Positions 17,459 to 21,013 of a stretch of 64,000 bases of DNA are shown piece by piece. The notes under the pieces were generated by a model. That model was not told the origin of the DNA. It did not search any database and saw only the letters and a program-made list of their open reading frames with translations. Positions within the stretch are counted from its first letter, which is position 1, and each line of letters opens with the position of its first letter. The position numbers and the translations under genes were made by a program. The DNA is from a virus. Where the stretch lies: UHGV virus genome UHGV-1375844; one strand, 5' to 3'.

Positions 17459-18103
17459 TTAAAACGTCTCAGGGGGCTTCTGACGCGCTACGCTGATGTC
17501 GATCACCCCAGCTTTTGGTCGAGGGTCGAAAAGATTCAGCTCTTCAGCGCTGTGATACTCCGTATCGAACTCCCGATCGACATGGCGGATATAGATGGCT
17601 GTGAGCAGGCTGTCATCATTCAGGAAGTGTCCGTAGGATTTGCGGATCACTTCGCCCACCTTCTCGATCTTTTCCCCGCCTATGCAGAGATGGTTAAATC
17701 GACTGTGTTTCCGCAGCATCTCATCCACCGGGCCGGAGTATACCTTATCGACTCTTCCGAACCGGATGATACTTCCCTTTTCAGCCTCGACCAGACAAAC
17801 GAGCTTGCCAGGCTCGACTCTGTCTTTCCACGTTACACCAGAGCGTAGCGTGTTGAAGTAGGGTGCATCTAATCCGATGATCGGTTTACGAAATGCCAGC
17901 AGTGGAACATACCTGATGCAGCTGTTCAGGTGAAAGTGAGCACCGGCATCATGTAATTTTAAGCGAGCCTCATTGATAGGGCATTTCGATGCTATGCCGC
18001 AAAGGTCACAGAGTAGCTTCAGCTTGTTCAGGCTACTGTTGGACTCAATAGTGTATGAACCGTCTTCAAGACGGCGAACCCATCGCGTGCGTTTAAGATC
18101 CAT
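17459..18103 (-). CDS. hypothetical Cys/His-rich protein
   Basis: CDLCGIASKCP...HDAGAHFHLNSC cluster; start placed at internal ATG ~18103. Confidence 0.4.
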   Translation of the reverse strand: MDLKRTRWVRRLEDGSYTIESNSSLNKLKLLCDLCGIASKCPINEARLKLHDAGAHFHLNSCIRYVPLLAFRKPIIGLDAPYFNTLRSGVTWKDRVEPGKLVCLVEAEKGSIIRFGRVDKVYSGPVDEMLRKHSRFNHLCIGGEKIEKVGEVIRKSYGHFLNDDSLLTAIYIRHVDREFDTEYHSAEELNLFDPRPKAGVIDISVARQKPPETF

Positions 18104-18180
18104 TTTTGCTTTCTGATAGTGATTGTCGGTGCCACGATAACTTACAAGGCGCACCGATGTTTGCAAACGCCTGTTTTACT

Positions 18181-18262
18181 TATTCCCATTATTCACAGGA
18201 CCGATCCAATAATAAGATCCCCAGAGAGATCATACAGAAGATCAAAAGAGATCCCCGATCGT
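18181..18262. promoter_or_regulatory. origin-associated GATC cluster (6 GATC in ~60 bp) with a DnaA-box-like TTATTCACA
   Basis: GATC sites counted directly; resembles the methylation-sensitive P1 oriR layout. Confidence 0.5.
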
Positions 18263-18295
18263 CTCCAGCCCTTGGGGTTACTGGTCTGAGAAGGG

Positions 18296-18405
18296 TTTAC
18301 TATCCACTATGGGGAGGAAAGTAACCTCTGTAGAGAGCGTAATAACCGCTGTGGGTAGCAAAACAACCTCGCTGGAGAGCGGCTACTATCCACTGTAGAG
18401 AGTAG
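18296..18405. repeat. iteron array I (5 x ~21 bp, core CCACTrTrGrGAG)
   Basis: Five direct repeats at 21 bp spacing. Confidence 0.7.
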
Positions 18406-18584
18406 AACAGTATGTCTTCCCTGAATAACTACATGCCTTTAATTTTGGCTCATATAGCTGATTTACAAAGATAAATGCCAAATCCTGCCAGCAAAAATTC
18501 TGTTTCAGACACAAATTATCCCCAGAGAGGGCGGCCAATCTCACTCTGCAATTGCCTGATTTTTATAAACAGGCCCGATCCAGT

Positions 18585-18640
18585 AATTCAGATCCTAAAG
18601 AGAACCTAAGAGACCCACAAAGACCCAAAAAGATCCCCGC
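18585..18640. promoter_or_regulatory. second GATC-containing cluster
   Basis: Three GATC sites with A-rich spacers upstream of iteron array II. Confidence 0.4.
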
Positions 18641-18679
18641 ACCCCGCAAACCCTTATCGTGTCTGGCTTTAAGGATGAT

Positions 18680-18805
18680 CGTTATCCACTATAGAGAGCA
18701 AATCAACCACTGTAATGAGTAAGACAACCACTATGGAGAGCAGAAAAACCACTATAGACAGTGTATTAACCGCTATGTTGAGTGATACTATCCACTATAA
18801 CCAGT
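18680..18805. repeat. iteron array II (6 x ~21 bp) immediately upstream of repA (incC-like)
   Basis: Six direct repeats such as CGTTATCCACTATAGAGAGCA and AAGACAACCACTATGGAGAGC. Confidence 0.75.
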
Positions 18806-18845
18806 AAAAGACGCTGCCTGCGGCCACGCATTAGAGACTATCTGG

Positions 18846-19901
18846 ATGAGCGAAAACGACAATAAAAACATTGCGATAAGCGAAGCATTTTCCGAAACAG
18901 ACAAAAAAACCGGCGAACTTGTTACGTTAGTTCCTAACACCAACAACACAGTCCAGCCCGTTGCTCTCATGCGTTTAGGACTCTTTGTACCCACGCTTAA
19001 ATCCACAGCAAGGGGTAGAAAGGGACAAATGGTCTCAATGGATGCCACAGCTGAACTCAAACAACTTTCTCTGGCCAAAGCCGAAGGGTATGAGGACATA
19101 CGGATCTCCGGGATGCGCCTGGATATGGATAATGACTTCAAAACCTGGGTCGGCATCATTCATGCCTTTGCCAAACATAAGGTAGTTGGCGACACTGTCA
19201 CGTTATCGTTTGTCGAGTTCGTCAGGCTTTGCGGCATCCCGACTGCAAGGTCATCAGCGAGGCTGCGTAAGCGTCTTGAAGACTCTCTCAACCGTATTGC
19301 CACAAACACCATCAAGTTCCGAAGCAAAGGCTCTGAAGAGGTTTACGTAACGCACCTGGTGCAAACAGCGAAGTACAGCATCAAGAAAGACACCGTCGAG
19401 CTGAAGGCTGATCCTAAAATTTTCGAACTCTACCAGTTCGACAAAAAGGTCCTTCTTCAACTACGAGCGATCAACGAACTTTCCAGAAAAGAATCCGCGC
19501 AGGCGCTCTACACTTTCATCGAAAGTTTGCCTCCTGACCCGGCGCCTATCTCAATGGCCCGCTTACGCGCCAGGCTCAATCTAACCAGTCGCACCATTAC
19601 CCAGAACGCGACAGTCAGGAAGGCGATGGAGCAGCTGCGGGAGATCGGCTATCTCGACTACACAGAAGTGAAACGCGGTAGTTCTGTTTATTTCATTATC
19701 CACTATAGACGGCCAAAGTTGCGACCGGCTCAGATACCGGTCAAAGCCGGGCCAGACGAGCCTGAAGATAATTTCCCTGATGAAACTCAGGAGGACATCA
19801 TCGATGTTGTCCCGGAAGAAAAAGAATGCAAGATGGTCATGTTGAGCAAAGAAGAACTGGCGATTCTCGAAGAACTGCGTAAGGCAAAAGCGCGTAAATG
19901 A
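18846..19901 (+). CDS. repA: plasmid replication initiator RepA (P1 type)
   Basis: Clear similarity to P1 RepA as I recall it ([47 protein letters not shown]); flanked by iterons. Confidence 0.9.
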
Positions 19902-20478
19902 CCTAACCGCTGTAGAGAGTAAAAGGCTCGCTAACCACTGTAGCGAGCCTTTTTTTATTCATAATCTGCCATCCGCTGTAGTGAGCAGCAGACCACACAT
20001 CCTATCCACTGCAGGCAGTAAAGTGGCTCAGGACTGATTATGTTAGTGTTCGCAAACATAGACGTGTCAAGGGCTGCGGAGTTAGTGGTCACTGGGTAGC
20101 AGGGTAGTCGCACTATCCACAGTGGATATCTTGGCCCCTCATCCTTTGACTAACCACTATAGAGAGCAAACCCGGCTGATCGATATTGCCAACCACTATG
20201 GGGAGTACATATCCGCTGAAAACAGCAAAGGTTTACTCCCCATAGTGGATACCTGCTGGCGGGCGCAGTTTTCCACTCTCTATAGTGGTTGTTCATCGAG
20301 AATGAACGTCTGTTTACTCACTACAGTGGATAGAGTTTCCGGCAATCACGGCTTCACTCACTACAGTGGTTGGATCGTCAATAGGGATGGCACTCTACTC
20401 TCTACAGTGGATATGAGCCGGTACGCACGCGGTGAGCTAATTACTCACCGCAGTGGTTAATGCTATCAGTGGATGTTC
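19902..20478. repeat. iteron array III (incA-like; ~12 copies in both orientations)
   Basis: Repeated AACCACTATAGAGAG / CCACTGTAGAGAG and inverted CTCTCTATAGTGG cores. Confidence 0.75.
19922..19957 (+). terminator. rho-independent terminator after repA (GGCTCGCTA stem, T7 tract)
   Basis: Stem-loop followed by TTTTTTT right after the repA stop. Confidence 0.7.
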
Positions 20479-20678
20479 TTCAGTAAACCCCAGAGCGTTC
20501 CGGCCTTTTTGGTGAGCTTTCCTGTTTCCGGATCGTACATGCGCCACTCCCGCCTCTGATGGATAATGTACCCATCTTCACGCTCAAGTCGTTCCAGCGC
20601 ACCGGTTTGTTTAAAGCCCTTTGCCCGCCAGTAGCCACTTGCTTTTTCGATTTCCAGACCTGCCAGCGTAACTGCCAT
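20466..20678 (-). CDS. hypothetical protein (70 aa)
   Basis: ORF abutting the next gene upstream. Confidence 0.35.
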   Translation of the reverse strand: MAVTLAGLEIEKASGYWRAKGFKQTGALERLEREDGYIIHQRREWRMYDPETGKLTKKAGTLWGLLKNIH

Positions 20679-21013
20679 TAACCAACCTCCTTGCAGTCAT
20701 CGAAAAGATAGCTCGCGTCCTTTACGTGAACGCCATAAAAATCACCGGACTTGTTATAAATAAATTTATCCTCGCCGGTACCAGAATATTTCCCATCACG
20801 TTTGGTCAGGGTTGGGGAAGACAAGACACGATCATCACGAACGACATAAAACTGATCCCCACTGTCGACGACCATTGCCCCGTATGACGCTCTCATAACG
20901 TTTGAGATGCTGCCATTTTTTGTTTCTGCTACAGACATTGCACATTCATAGACGCGTGTCTCAGCGCAAACAGGCTGTATCAGCAATAACATTGCCAGGC
21001 CAATTTTCTTCAC
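20678..21013 (-). CDS. putative secreted protein (signal peptide), GTG start
   Basis: N-terminal MKKIGLAMLLLIQPVCAE; GTGA overlap with the upstream small ORF. Confidence 0.45.
   Translation of the reverse strand: MKKIGLAMLLLIQPVCAETRVYECAMSVAETKNGSISNVMRASYGAMVVDSGDQFYVVRDDRVLSSPTLTKRDGKYSGTGEDKFIYNKSGDFYGVHVKDASYLFDDCKEVG

What the first reader, a model, noticed from the sequence alone, without database searches (positions are those of the whole stretch)
18181..20478. Duplicated GATC-cluster plus iteron module upstream of repA, and a mixed-orientation iteron array downstream
Two consecutive units of GATC-rich stretch followed by 5 or 6 iterons precede repA, and about 12 iterons in both orientations follow it. 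P1 has one such upstream unit; the duplication and the methylation sites next to a phage-encoded Dam-family MTase (644-1237) suggest methylation-coupled copy-number control.
Basis: partly seen in the sequence, partly recalled or inferred. Interest (0 to 1): 0.55.

Follow-up and report, generated by a model that had tools for sequence, protein, structure and literature searches.

The report
P1/RepFIB-type replicon with doubled origin module
This is the plasmid-replication unit of an SSU5/pHCM2/pMT1-type phage-plasmid, a relative of the phage P1 and RepFIB replicons; its origin-like module is present twice, and that doubling is an old, conserved family trait rather than something special to this genome.

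Summary
A score matrix built from the 11 upstream repeats finds 14 further iterons of at least 15 bits, all between 19697 and 20459. The best match in the other 61 kb scores 13.8. The map is 5 + 6 direct iterons upstream of repA (18846-19901), 1 inside repA, and 13 downstream (6 forward, 7 reverse).

Module 1 has an exact DnaA box (18189-18197) and 6 GATC in 58 bp, the only such cluster in 64 kb. Module 2 is a true paralogue (leaders align, z = 10.5). It keeps only 3 GATC; three heptamers have decayed to AGAACC/AGACCC.

RepA is 48% identical to P1 RepA and 59% to RepFIB RepA. The GATC leader aligns with P1's annotated oriR Dam sites. The region is 98.6% identical to a Salmonella IncFIB plasmid and about 81% to pMT1, SSU5 and a pHCM2-like Salmonella plasmid.

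All of these share the two-module layout, as do 69 of 101 non-redundant relatives. The distal module has more GATC in 68 of those 69. Both modules are under purifying selection.

My reading: the distal module is the Dam/SeqA-sensitive origin, the proximal one is the repA operator and an auxiliary site, and the downstream array is incA-like copy control. The link to the phage methyltransferase is not supported. This is a known replicon family with a little-described architectural variant; interest is moderate to low.

The parts
18189..18197 (+). DnaA box TTATTCACA of module 1, an exact match to TTATNCACA, 6 nt before the first GATC
   Evidence: one of only 2 exact matches in 64 kb. Conserved as TTAT[TC]CAC[AT] across relatives. 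Perfect in 47 of 69 distal modules.
18203..18260 (.). GATC cluster 1: six GATC in AGATCxx heptamers spaced 7-13 bp. Homologue of the P1 oriR Dam-site region and the presumed unwinding and SeqA target.
   Evidence: unique cluster. (heptamers). (alignment with P1, RepFIB and IncFIB(K) leaders). (GATC columns pi 0.019 against 0.179 for neighbouring columns).
18301..18403 (+). Iteron block 1: five direct 17-nt iterons at 21-bp spacing (consensus TAACCACTATAGAGAGC)
   Evidence: Same five positions in pMT1, SSU5 and Cyrano. pi = 0.090.
18420..18428 (-). Degenerate inverted DnaA-box-like site (TTATTCAGG, 2 mismatches) on the right flank of block 1. It is a perfect box in Pantoea and some other relatives.
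   Evidence: conserved GTG/CTG-GATAA block. (reverse-strand DnaA boxes at this position in Pantoea).
18404..18562 (.). Spacer between the two modules. It evolves at the neutral rate and varies in length among relatives. It holds an IHF-consensus match at 18549-18561 (-).
   Evidence: pi 0.250 against 0.249 for repA third codon positions; one of 2 IHF-consensus matches in the window; no conserved ORF and no Rfam family.
18563..18571 (+). DnaA-box-like site of module 2 (TTATAAACA, 1 mismatch), again 6 nt before the first GATC. It is a perfect TTATACACA in pMT1, SSU5 and most of the group.
   Evidence: pi = 0.069.
18576..18637 (.). Heptamer cluster 2: CGATCCA, AGATCCT, AGAACCT, AGACCCA, AGACCCA, AGATCCC at 10-14 bp spacing. 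Three GATC are kept and three have decayed.
   Evidence: The same kept and decayed pattern appears across the SSU5 group, Rahnella and Erwinia. GATC columns pi 0.000, decayed tetramers 0.071.
18683..18805 (+). Iteron block 2: six direct iterons at 21-bp spacing, ending 40 nt before repA. Presumed site of the repA promoter and operator.
   Evidence: By position it corresponds to P1 incC, where PrepA is annotated inside the last iterons. The consensus promoter scan found no site on the + strand.
18846..19901 (+). repA, a 351-aa Rep_3-type initiator
   Evidence: Pfam PF01051 Rep3_N at E = 3.7e-12; PF21205 Rep3_C at 20.7 bits, just under the 21.1 cut-off. 48% identity to P1 RepA and 59% to pO157 RepFIB RepA. 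Annotated as repA in the 98.6%-identical plasmid.
19697..19713 (+). Iteron-like 17-mer inside the 3' part of repA (codons for IIHYR)
   Evidence: 17.6 bits. Present at the same place in pMT1, SSU5 and Cyrano.
19921..19960 (+). Intrinsic terminator of repA. The iteron at 19932 sits in its stem and loop.
   Evidence: minimum free energy -21.6 kcal/mol, z = -3.9.
19904..20019 (+). Downstream iteron group A: four forward iterons (19904, 19932, 19970, 20003)
20112..20478 (.). Downstream iteron group B: forward 20151 and 20190 (weak 20210); reverse 20112, 20235, 20275, 20316, 20356, 20397, 20443, mostly 40-41 bp apart; half-site at about 20465-20477. This is the counterpart of incA in P1 and of repeats E-K in RepFIB.
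   Evidence: The number of 40-bp units varies among relatives. P1 incA is 3 forward and 6 reverse.

Best explanation
The region is the plasmid-maintenance replicon of an SSU5/pHCM2/pMT1-type phage-plasmid, an iteron-controlled theta replicon of the P1 / RepFIB kind.

How it works, inferred from P1 and RepFIB and not tested here:
- RepA monomers bind the 21-bp-phased iterons.
- With host DnaA bound at the adjacent DnaA box, they open the neighbouring run of GATC heptamers.
- The heptamers must be Dam-methylated for initiation. When hemimethylated after replication they are held by SeqA, which delays re-initiation.
- The 13 downstream iterons, in mixed orientation, are the incA / E-K-type control array. 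They titrate RepA and pair with ('handcuff') the origin iterons to hold copy number low.

What is particular to this family is that the whole origin cassette (DnaA box, GATC heptamers, 5-6 iterons) is present twice in tandem, the result of an old duplication. The copies have diverged in a consistent way. The distal copy (18189-18403) keeps every origin hallmark. The proximal copy (18563-18805), which abuts repA, has lost its central GATC sites.

My reading is a division of labour. The distal copy is the main methylation-sensitive origin. The proximal copy keeps the repA promoter and operator (autoregulation) and serves as an extra RepA/DnaA-binding partner. Host Dam supplies the methylation, not the phage methyltransferase.

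The confidence given (0.55) is for the whole statement. The identity as a P1/RepFIB-type replicon with a conserved duplicated origin cassette I put at about 0.9. The assignment of the distal copy as the main origin I put at about 0.45-0.5.
For: Identity of the replicon:
- The whole 2.45 kb is 98.6% identical to an IncFIB-typed Salmonella plasmid and about 81% to pMT1, SSU5 and Cyrano.
- RepA has a Rep_3 domain and is 48% identical to P1 RepA and 59% to RepFIB RepA.
- The leader aligns base for base with P1 oriR, whose DnaA box, five Dam sites, five incC iterons, PrepA and incA are annotated.
- It also aligns with the pO157 RepFIB origin region.
- The roles of upstream iterons (origin) and downstream iterons (control, handcuffing) in RepFIB are described in PMC11983097.

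Duplication and its asymmetry:
- The two leaders are paralogous, z = 10.5.
- The two-module layout is found in 69 of 101 non-redundant relatives. The distal module has more GATC than the proximal in 68 of 69, equal in 1, fewer in none. Distal counts are 4-6 and proximal counts 0-5. That count misses one proximal GATC in the SSU5 group, which does not change the ranking.
- Relatives with a single module (P1, pO157 RepFIB, IncFIB(K), a Pantoea clade) keep 5-6 GATC in it.
- Cronobacter and Phytobacter have lost the proximal GATC cluster altogether but keep the distal one.

Both copies are functional. In 26 SSU5-group sequences the spacer (pi 0.250) evolves like repA third codon positions (0.249). 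Cluster 1 (0.120; GATC columns 0.019), block 1 (0.090), cluster 2 (0.083; GATC columns 0.000) and block 2 (0.128) are all constrained.
Against: - No experiment on this replicon type was found in the searchable literature. Which module fires is inference only.
- The proximal leader is at least as conserved as the distal one (pi 0.083 against 0.120). It keeps a perfect DnaA box in most SSU5-group members. That is more than a mere operator would need.
- The proximal module is the positional counterpart of the single origin of P1 and RepFIB, so it could still be the origin.
- One relative (L089) looks as if its distal module is the degenerate one.
- No sigma-70 consensus promoter for repA was found on the + strand, so placing the promoter in block 2 rests on analogy with P1.
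- Dam and SeqA dependence is inferred from homologues that share only 48-59% RepA identity.
Confidence: 0.55

Rival explanations
1. The proximal module (18563-18805) is the working origin, as in P1 and RepFIB, where the single module next to repA is both origin and operator. The distal module would then be an accessory regulatory copy: an extra RepA sink and handcuffing partner, and a SeqA-binding 'landing pad' that strengthens sequestration of the nearby origin.
For: - The proximal module occupies the same position (about -236 from repA) as the only module of single-module relatives.
- Its leader and DnaA box are strongly conserved, and its three GATC are invariant.
- Most SSU5-group members have a perfect DnaA box there.
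Against: - A pure titration or handcuffing element would not need a DnaA box, nor GATC sites conserved at pi 0.019.
- The proximal GATC set is reduced in 68 of 69 lineages and is absent in Cronobacter and Phytobacter, which still keep the full distal set.
Confidence: 0.25
2. Both modules are independent origins driven by the same RepA. One is strongly Dam/SeqA-regulated (6 GATC) and one weakly so (3 GATC). This would give the element two initiation modes, for example in hosts or conditions that differ in Dam activity, or in plasmid maintenance versus induced growth.
For: - Both modules carry the full parts list: DnaA(-like) box, phased heptamers and 5-6 iterons at 21 bp.
- Both are under purifying selection, while the spacer between them drifts in sequence and varies in length (module-to-module distance 246-401 bp among lineages).
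Against: - There is no direct evidence.
- Some lineages dispense with the proximal heptamer cluster.
- The window's own proximal DnaA box has a mismatch.
- Two active origins 380 bp apart that share one initiator would compete with each other.
Confidence: 0.15
3. One reading: the duplicated GATC clusters work together with the phage-encoded Dam-family methyltransferase (644-1237) as a phage-specific, methylation-coupled copy-number control.
For: - The methyltransferase is real: PF05869 and TIGR01712.
- GATC sites in both modules are under selection.
Against: - The gene is 17 kb from the origin.
- The sequence specificity of this methyltransferase was not tested.
- The same two-module replicon is present in 63 Yersinia pMT1 records, while Yersinia is absent from the ten organisms listed by name for the methyltransferase. 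Conversely, 342 Klebsiella plasmids have the methyltransferase and only 3 have this replicon.
- The architecture also occurs on Pantoea and Erwinia contigs of 300-800 kb.
- From my own knowledge, not from a tool result: the enterobacterial hosts involved have their own Dam.
Confidence: 0.05

Closest known systems
Replicon of pMT1 (Yersinia pestis), pHCM2-type plasmids (Salmonella Typhi) and phage SSU5, typed as IncFIB by plasmid-typing tools
   Same: The entire 2.4-kb layout is the same: DnaA box, 6 GATC, 5 iterons, spacer, 3 GATC plus 3 decayed heptamers, 6 iterons, repA with an internal iteron, terminator, and a mixed-orientation downstream array. Nucleotide identity is about 81% and RepA identity about 90%. 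A preprint places SSU5, pHCM2 and pMT1 in one supergroup.
   Different: The window's lineage (98.6% identical to pAR-0407-3) has a mismatch in the proximal DnaA box, a palindromic variant of one reverse iteron (20112-20130) and a different number of 40-bp downstream units.
Phage P1 plasmid replicon (oriR/incC - repA - incA)
   Same: - Homologous RepA (48% identity).
- Homologous DnaA-box and GATC-heptamer leader.
- Five iterons at 21-bp spacing.
- Downstream control array of mixed orientation.
- One heptamer is already decayed in P1 (AGGTCC).
   Different: - P1 has one origin module; here there are two.
- The iteron sequences are unrelated (P1 GATGTGTGCTGGAGGG against TAACCACTATAGAGAGC).
- P1 has 14 iterons in all; here there are 25.
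- In P1 the par operon follows incA; here it does not.
RepFIB basic replicon (P307 / F / pO157; REPI of pColV-K30)
   Same: - RepA is 59% identical.
- The leader has a DnaA box and five GATC.
- Upstream repeats (BCDD'D'') are associated with the origin, and downstream repeats (E-K) act in control and incompatibility.
- The iterons are recognisably related (AAACTGTAGTCAGT against CCACTGTAGAGAGT).
   Different: It has a single upstream module with its full GATC set.
Iteron origins with accessory iteron clusters or several origins (RK2 oriV, R6K alpha/beta/gamma) and the Vibrio cholerae chromosome II origin
   Same: These show the same general logic: extra initiator-binding repeats outside the minimal origin tune copy number, and in V. 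cholerae oriII Dam methylation and SeqA act on an iteron origin (PMC6090056; PMC2865523). The RK2 and R6K details come from my own knowledge.
   Different: The initiators are unrelated. In none of these systems is the complete cassette of DnaA box, GATC heptamers and iterons repeated in tandem. In oriII the GATC lie inside the iterons.

Membership tests
P1 / RepFIB-type iteron replicon | Rep_3 (WH1-WH2) initiator homologous to P1 RepA and RepFIB RepA | tested here: met
   PF01051 at E = 3.7e-12. PF21205 at 20.7 bits, marginally under the 21.1 cut-off. 48% identity to P1 RepA at E = 2e-94. 59% identity to pO157 RepFIB RepA at E = 9e-142. No sequence match to a solved structure.
P1 / RepFIB-type iteron replicon | Array of about five direct iterons at 21-22 bp spacing just upstream of rep | tested here: met
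   Block 2 has 6 iterons at 21 bp and ends 40 nt before the ATG. Block 1 has 5 iterons at 21 bp.
P1 / RepFIB-type iteron replicon | DnaA box followed by a run of GATC-containing heptamers on the far side of the iterons | tested here: met
   Exact box at 18189-18197 followed by 6 GATC. The run aligns with P1's annotated DnaA site and Dam sites 1-5 and with the pO157 and IncFIB(K) leaders.
P1 / RepFIB-type iteron replicon | Second iteron array downstream of rep, in mixed orientation, acting as a copy-control / incompatibility locus | tested here: inconclusive
   The structure is present: 13 iterons, 6 forward and 7 reverse, as in P1 incA with 3 forward and 6 reverse. The control function cannot be tested with these tools.
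P1 / RepFIB-type iteron replicon | rep promoter embedded in the proximal iterons (autoregulation) | tested here: inconclusive
   The consensus scan found no + strand promoter in 18050-20600. The last iteron has a conserved TATAAC/TGTAAT hexamer but no convincing -35 element.
P1 / RepFIB-type iteron replicon | Dependence of initiation on Dam methylation, and SeqA sequestration | not testable with these tools
   Indirect evidence only: GATC columns have pi 0.019 and 0.000 against 0.18 and 0.11 for neighbouring columns. Titles of the P1 and REPI papers were seen.
P1 / RepFIB-type iteron replicon | A single origin module, as in the type members P1, P307/F and pO157 | tested here: not met
   Two tandem paralogous modules are present. 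This is the feature that sets the pMT1/SSU5 clade apart. It is an architectural difference, not a reason to exclude the replicon from the family.
pMT1 / pHCM2 / SSU5 (IncFIB) replicon | Collinear nucleotide homology over origin modules, repA and downstream array | tested here: met
   99% coverage at about 81-82% identity to pMT1 CO92 and many Enterobacter, Salmonella and Citrobacter plasmids. 131 records cover at least 80% of the 2.45 kb, and 335 cover at least 80% of the 700-bp upstream region.
pMT1 / pHCM2 / SSU5 (IncFIB) replicon | Typed as IncFIB and carried on an SSU5-like phage-plasmid backbone | tested here: met
   The nearest record, NZ_CP044180.1, is typed IncFIB and non-mobilizable, with the same flanking genes as SSU5, Cyrano and pMT1.

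The most novel reading that the evidence does not exclude
The tandem origin cassettes are not redundant. After an ancient duplication, one P1-type origin split into two specialised elements that share one initiator. One is a fully Dam/SeqA-gated origin. The other is a GATC-poor cassette that either fires as a second, methylation-insensitive origin or has become a dedicated autoregulatory and pairing site. This would be a natural, conserved example of subfunctionalisation of a replication origin, present in the plague plasmid pMT1 and the typhoid plasmid pHCM2.
Probability: 0.2. Interest if true: 0.55.

Novelty: new variant of a known kind. Interest (0 to 1): 0.33.

Why it matters
The replicon itself is ordinary and already typed as IncFIB. 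It maintains SSU5-group phage-plasmids, pHCM2 of S. Typhi and pMT1 of Y. pestis. SSU5-group elements are reported to carry antimicrobial-resistance genes.

The part worth knowing is comparative. A whole P1-type origin cassette has been kept in two copies across many Enterobacterales, with the same asymmetric loss of Dam sites each time. If the two copies really divide origin and operator functions, the family is a ready-made system for asking how methylation gating, autoregulation and handcuffing can be separated in an iteron replicon. It would also show which sub-fragments to use in plasmid-curing or incompatibility cassettes against these elements.

Tried and rejected
- Literature. Searches for RepFIB, pMT1, SSU5, iterons and Dam found no description or dissection of the pMT1/SSU5 origin. 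The 1990s papers on RepFIB and pMT1 are not held. A 2026 preprint on phage-plasmid heteroresistance with 41 mentions of repA could not be opened. So I cannot exclude that the two-module layout has been described before.
- repA promoter. The consensus scan found nothing on the + strand, and inspection by eye gave no convincing -35/-10 pair.
- Rfam. A scan of 17900-20700 gave only sub-threshold chance matches, so there is no known RNA element.
- Solved structures. No sequence match for RepA.
- Anchor-motif and simple clustering classifications of relatives were too noisy for distant lineages. I replaced them with counts of GATC in the 100 nt before each iteron block. That count misses one proximal GATC in the SSU5 group, because the first site lies 106 nt upstream.
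- Remnant-replicon idea. I considered that module 1 might be the origin of a second, lost rep gene. There is no coding remnant in the 159-nt spacer, which evolves neutrally, and both blocks share one iteron consensus. I did not pursue it further.
- Natural deletion variants. Among closely related plasmids, no variant lacking one module was found.
Full report
**What is in the sequence**

The finding lies in a 740-bp divergent intergenic region (about 18106-18845), the repA gene (18846-19901, + strand) and the 580 bp after it.

I built a 17-nt score matrix from the 11 upstream repeats and scanned both strands of the whole 64 kb window. Besides the seeds, it finds 14 more sites of at least 15 bits, all between 19697 and 20459. 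The best score anywhere else is 13.8 bits.

The iteron map is:
- Block 1, five direct iterons: 18301, 18322, 18343, 18364, 18387.
- Block 2, six direct iterons: 18683-18789, at 21-bp steps.
- One iteron inside repA: 19697.
- Six forward iterons downstream: 19904, 19932, 19970, 20003, 20151, 20190.
- Seven reverse iterons downstream: 20112, 20235, 20275, 20316, 20356, 20397, 20443.
- One weak site (20210) and a terminal half-site.

GATC occurs 296 times in the window. The stretch 18203-18260 holds six, and no other 80-bp stretch has more than three. An exact DnaA box (TTATTCACA, 18189-18197) sits 6 nt before the first GATC. It is one of two exact matches in the window.

**The second unit is a decayed copy**

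The second 'GATC-rich stretch' has only three GATC (18577, 18591, 18632), which is not remarkable by count. It is nevertheless a genuine paralogue. The two leaders, taken without their iterons, align with a Smith-Waterman score of 39 against 14.9 +/- 2.3 for shuffles (z = 10.5; alignment).

Both leaders are runs of xGAxCxx heptamers about one helical turn apart:
- Unit 1: CGATCCA, AGATCCC, AGATCAT, AGATCAA, AGATCCC, CGATCGT.
- Unit 2: CGATCCA, AGATCCT, AGAACCT, AGACCCA, AGACCCA, AGATCCC.

A DnaA-like box with one mismatch (TTATAAACA, 18563-18571) sits at the same 6-nt distance from unit 2's first GATC.

**What it is**

- The 2.45-kb region is 98.6% identical to plasmid pAR-0407-3 of Salmonella Concord, which is typed IncFIB and non-mobilizable.
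- It is about 81-82% identical, end to end, to pMT1 of Yersinia pestis, to phage SSU5, to a pHCM2-like Salmonella plasmid, to phage Cyrano and to many Enterobacter, Citrobacter and E. coli plasmids of about 110 kb.
- The flanking genes match the SSU5 backbone. SSU5, pHCM2 and pMT1 are treated as one phage-plasmid supergroup.
- RepA has the Rep_3 WH1 domain. It is 59% identical to the RepFIB RepA of pO157 and 48% to P1 RepA.
- The curated P1 record annotates exactly the same parts in the same order: DnaA site, five Dam sites, five incC iterons at 21 bp with PrepA inside them, repA, then nine incA iterons. By sequence, three of those nine are forward and six reverse.
- P1's leader (…TTATCCACTGGATAGATCCAATAATCAGGTCC…GATCCCTGATCGT…TCTGGCTTAGAAG) is recognisably the same sequence as unit 1 here. 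So is the origin region of pO157 RepFIB.
- In RepFIB the upstream repeats are associated with the origin. The downstream repeats exert control, with a handcuffing model (PMC11983097).
- Papers titled as showing that P1 replication requires methylated DNA, and that adenine methylation controls the REPI replicon of pColV-K30, are listed. I know from memory, not from a tool, that REPI is a RepFIB replicon and that SeqA binds the hemimethylated P1 origin.

**The duplication is a family trait**

pMT1, SSU5, the pHCM2-like plasmid and Cyrano have the same 5 + 6 iterons and the same 6 + 3 GATC at the same offsets.

I then fetched 118 loci encoding RepA relatives of 62-91% identity from viral and genome collections. 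Of 101 non-redundant upstream regions, 69 have two iteron blocks. These come from Rahnella, Erwinia, Pantoea, Buttiauxella, Cedecea, Xenorhabdus and others. In those 69:
- The distal leader has 4-6 GATC and the proximal one 0-5.
- The distal count exceeds the proximal in 68, is equal in 1, and is never lower.
- A perfect DnaA box is present in 47 distal and 23 proximal leaders.

The decayed positions are the central heptamers in every lineage, though the replacement letters differ. Cronobacter and Phytobacter have no proximal GATC cluster at all.

Relatives with one module keep 5-6 GATC in it. These are P1, pO157 RepFIB, IncFIB(K) and a Pantoea clade at 68% RepA identity. A RepA tree places the single-module P1, IncFIB(K) and RepFIB outside the two-module clade.

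Among closely related plasmids, 335 records keep at least 80% of the upstream region. I saw no natural variant lacking one module.

**Both copies are constrained**

In 26 non-redundant SSU5-group sequences, pairwise diversity (pi) is as follows:

| Segment | pi |
|---|---|
| Inter-module spacer | 0.250 |
| repA third codon positions | 0.249 |
| DnaA box 1 | 0.086 |
| GATC cluster 1 | 0.120 (GATC columns 0.019, other columns 0.179) |
| Iteron block 1 | 0.090 |
| DnaA box 2 | 0.069 |
| Heptamer cluster 2 | 0.083 (GATC columns 0.000, decayed tetramers 0.071) |
| Iteron block 2 | 0.128 |

So neither copy is a decaying relic. GATC as such is selected in both. The spacer is just a spacer: the module-to-module distance ranges from 246 to 401 bp across lineages.

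**Mechanism**

Shown: the parts list, their homology to P1 and RepFIB, the duplication, and its conserved asymmetry and constraint.

Inferred from homologues:
- RepA and DnaA open the heptamer run.
- Dam methylation is required, and SeqA sequesters the hemimethylated origin.
- RepA represses its own promoter in the proximal iterons.
- The downstream array titrates RepA and handcuffs the origin.

My own inference is a division of labour. The ancestral single module was both origin and operator. A distal copy cannot serve as the promoter, yet it keeps every origin hallmark intact. The proximal copy repeatedly loses the methylation sites and in some lineages the whole heptamer run. I therefore take the distal module to be the main methylation-gated origin and the proximal one to be the operator plus an auxiliary site.

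The weak points of this reading:
- The proximal leader is very well conserved.
- It keeps a good DnaA box in most relatives.
- I could not find a consensus promoter.
- One relative looks degenerate in the distal copy.

The rival readings, that the proximal module is the origin or that both modules are origins, remain open.

**The methyltransferase**

The ORF at 644-1237 (- strand) is a phage N6-adenine methyltransferase of Pfam family 'Dam'. It is 17 kb from the origin, and its distribution does not follow the replicon.

Homologues are in 763 plasmid records: 342 Klebsiella, 209 Escherichia, and so on, with Yersinia not among the ten organisms listed by name. The replicon is in 63 Yersinia and 3 Klebsiella records.

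The methyltransferase belongs to the phage backbone, and the replicon is an exchangeable module. The same architecture sits on Pantoea and Erwinia contigs of hundreds of kb. Host Dam is the obvious methylase; that the hosts are dam+ comes from my own knowledge.

**Verdict**

The 'special duplication' and the link to the methyltransferase are not supported.

The replicon is a known kind and a known family. The conserved two-cassette architecture with asymmetric loss of Dam sites is, as far as I could search, undescribed, but I could not read the primary papers from the 1990s. Interest is moderate to low.

Noticed in passing
window 20042-20057 and 20081-20096: Two palindromic sites (GTTAGTG-NN-CACTAAC-like) lie 39 bp apart in a conserved, iteron-free block between the two halves of the downstream array. 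In phage Cyrano the first site matches the pattern exactly, with an 18-bp perfect palindrome (TGTTAGTGATCACTAACA). Sites with at most 2 mismatches occur in 36 of 110 non-redundant downstream regions (SSU5 group, Rahnella, Erwinia), against 9 in 517 kb elsewhere in the same loci. The arms resemble the iteron core (ACCACTA), so this may be a binding site for RepA dimers.
   Followed up: partly
window 19697-19713 (+), inside repA: An iteron-like 17-mer (TATCCACTATAGACGGC, 17.6 bits) lies within the codons for IIHYR near the 3' end of repA. It is present at the same place in pMT1, SSU5 and Cyrano. It may be a by-product of the conserved peptide (IHYRRP is also in RepFIB RepA) or a real RepA site.
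   Followed up: partly
window 19921-19960 (+): The repA terminator hairpin (13-bp stem, -21.6 kcal/mol, z = -3.9) contains the downstream iteron at 19932 in its stem and loop. RepA binding and terminator formation could therefore interfere with each other.
   Followed up: partly
window 20112-20130: This reverse iteron is a perfect 7+1+7 palindrome (TATCCAC A GTGGATA) in the window's lineage only. pMT1, SSU5 and Cyrano have an ordinary reverse iteron there.
   Followed up: yes
window 18549-18561 (-): AATCAGGCAATTG matches the IHF consensus WATCARNNNNTTR. It is one of only two matches in 64 kb and sits just before the module 2 DnaA-like box. The match is kept in pMT1 but not in Cyrano or more distant relatives.
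   Followed up: partly
window 18217-18228 and 18518-18529: An exact 12-nt repeat, ATCCCCAGAGAG, occurs once inside GATC cluster 1 and once in the spacer, 301 bp apart. It may be a trace of a further partial duplication.
   Followed up: no
window 644-1237 (-): The phage N6-adenine methyltransferase (PF05869/TIGR01712) is widespread on SSU5-like plasmids of Klebsiella and E. coli that use a different replicon. Yersinia is absent from the ten organisms listed by name among the matching records. Backbone and replicon are therefore exchanged independently.
   Followed up: yes
L005 (K. pneumoniae IncFIB(K) plasmid) 1650-1900, and about 500 Klebsiella/E. coli plasmids of about 110 kb: The DnaA-box and GATC leader of the window's module 1 (18163-18261) matches the leader of IncFIB(K)/pKPHS1-type replicons at about 80% identity, although their Rep proteins are only about 50% identical. 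IncFIB(K) also has an extra iteron group about 300 bp upstream, but without a GATC cluster.
   Followed up: partly
window 17459-18166 (-) and 20466-20678 (-): The replicon is flanked by a gene annotated in Cyrano as an ASCH-domain protein (no Pfam hit here) and by a small gene annotated in SSU5 and Cyrano as 'Cre-associated' / P1 Cra-like. The second gene is transcribed towards the downstream iteron array.
   Followed up: no
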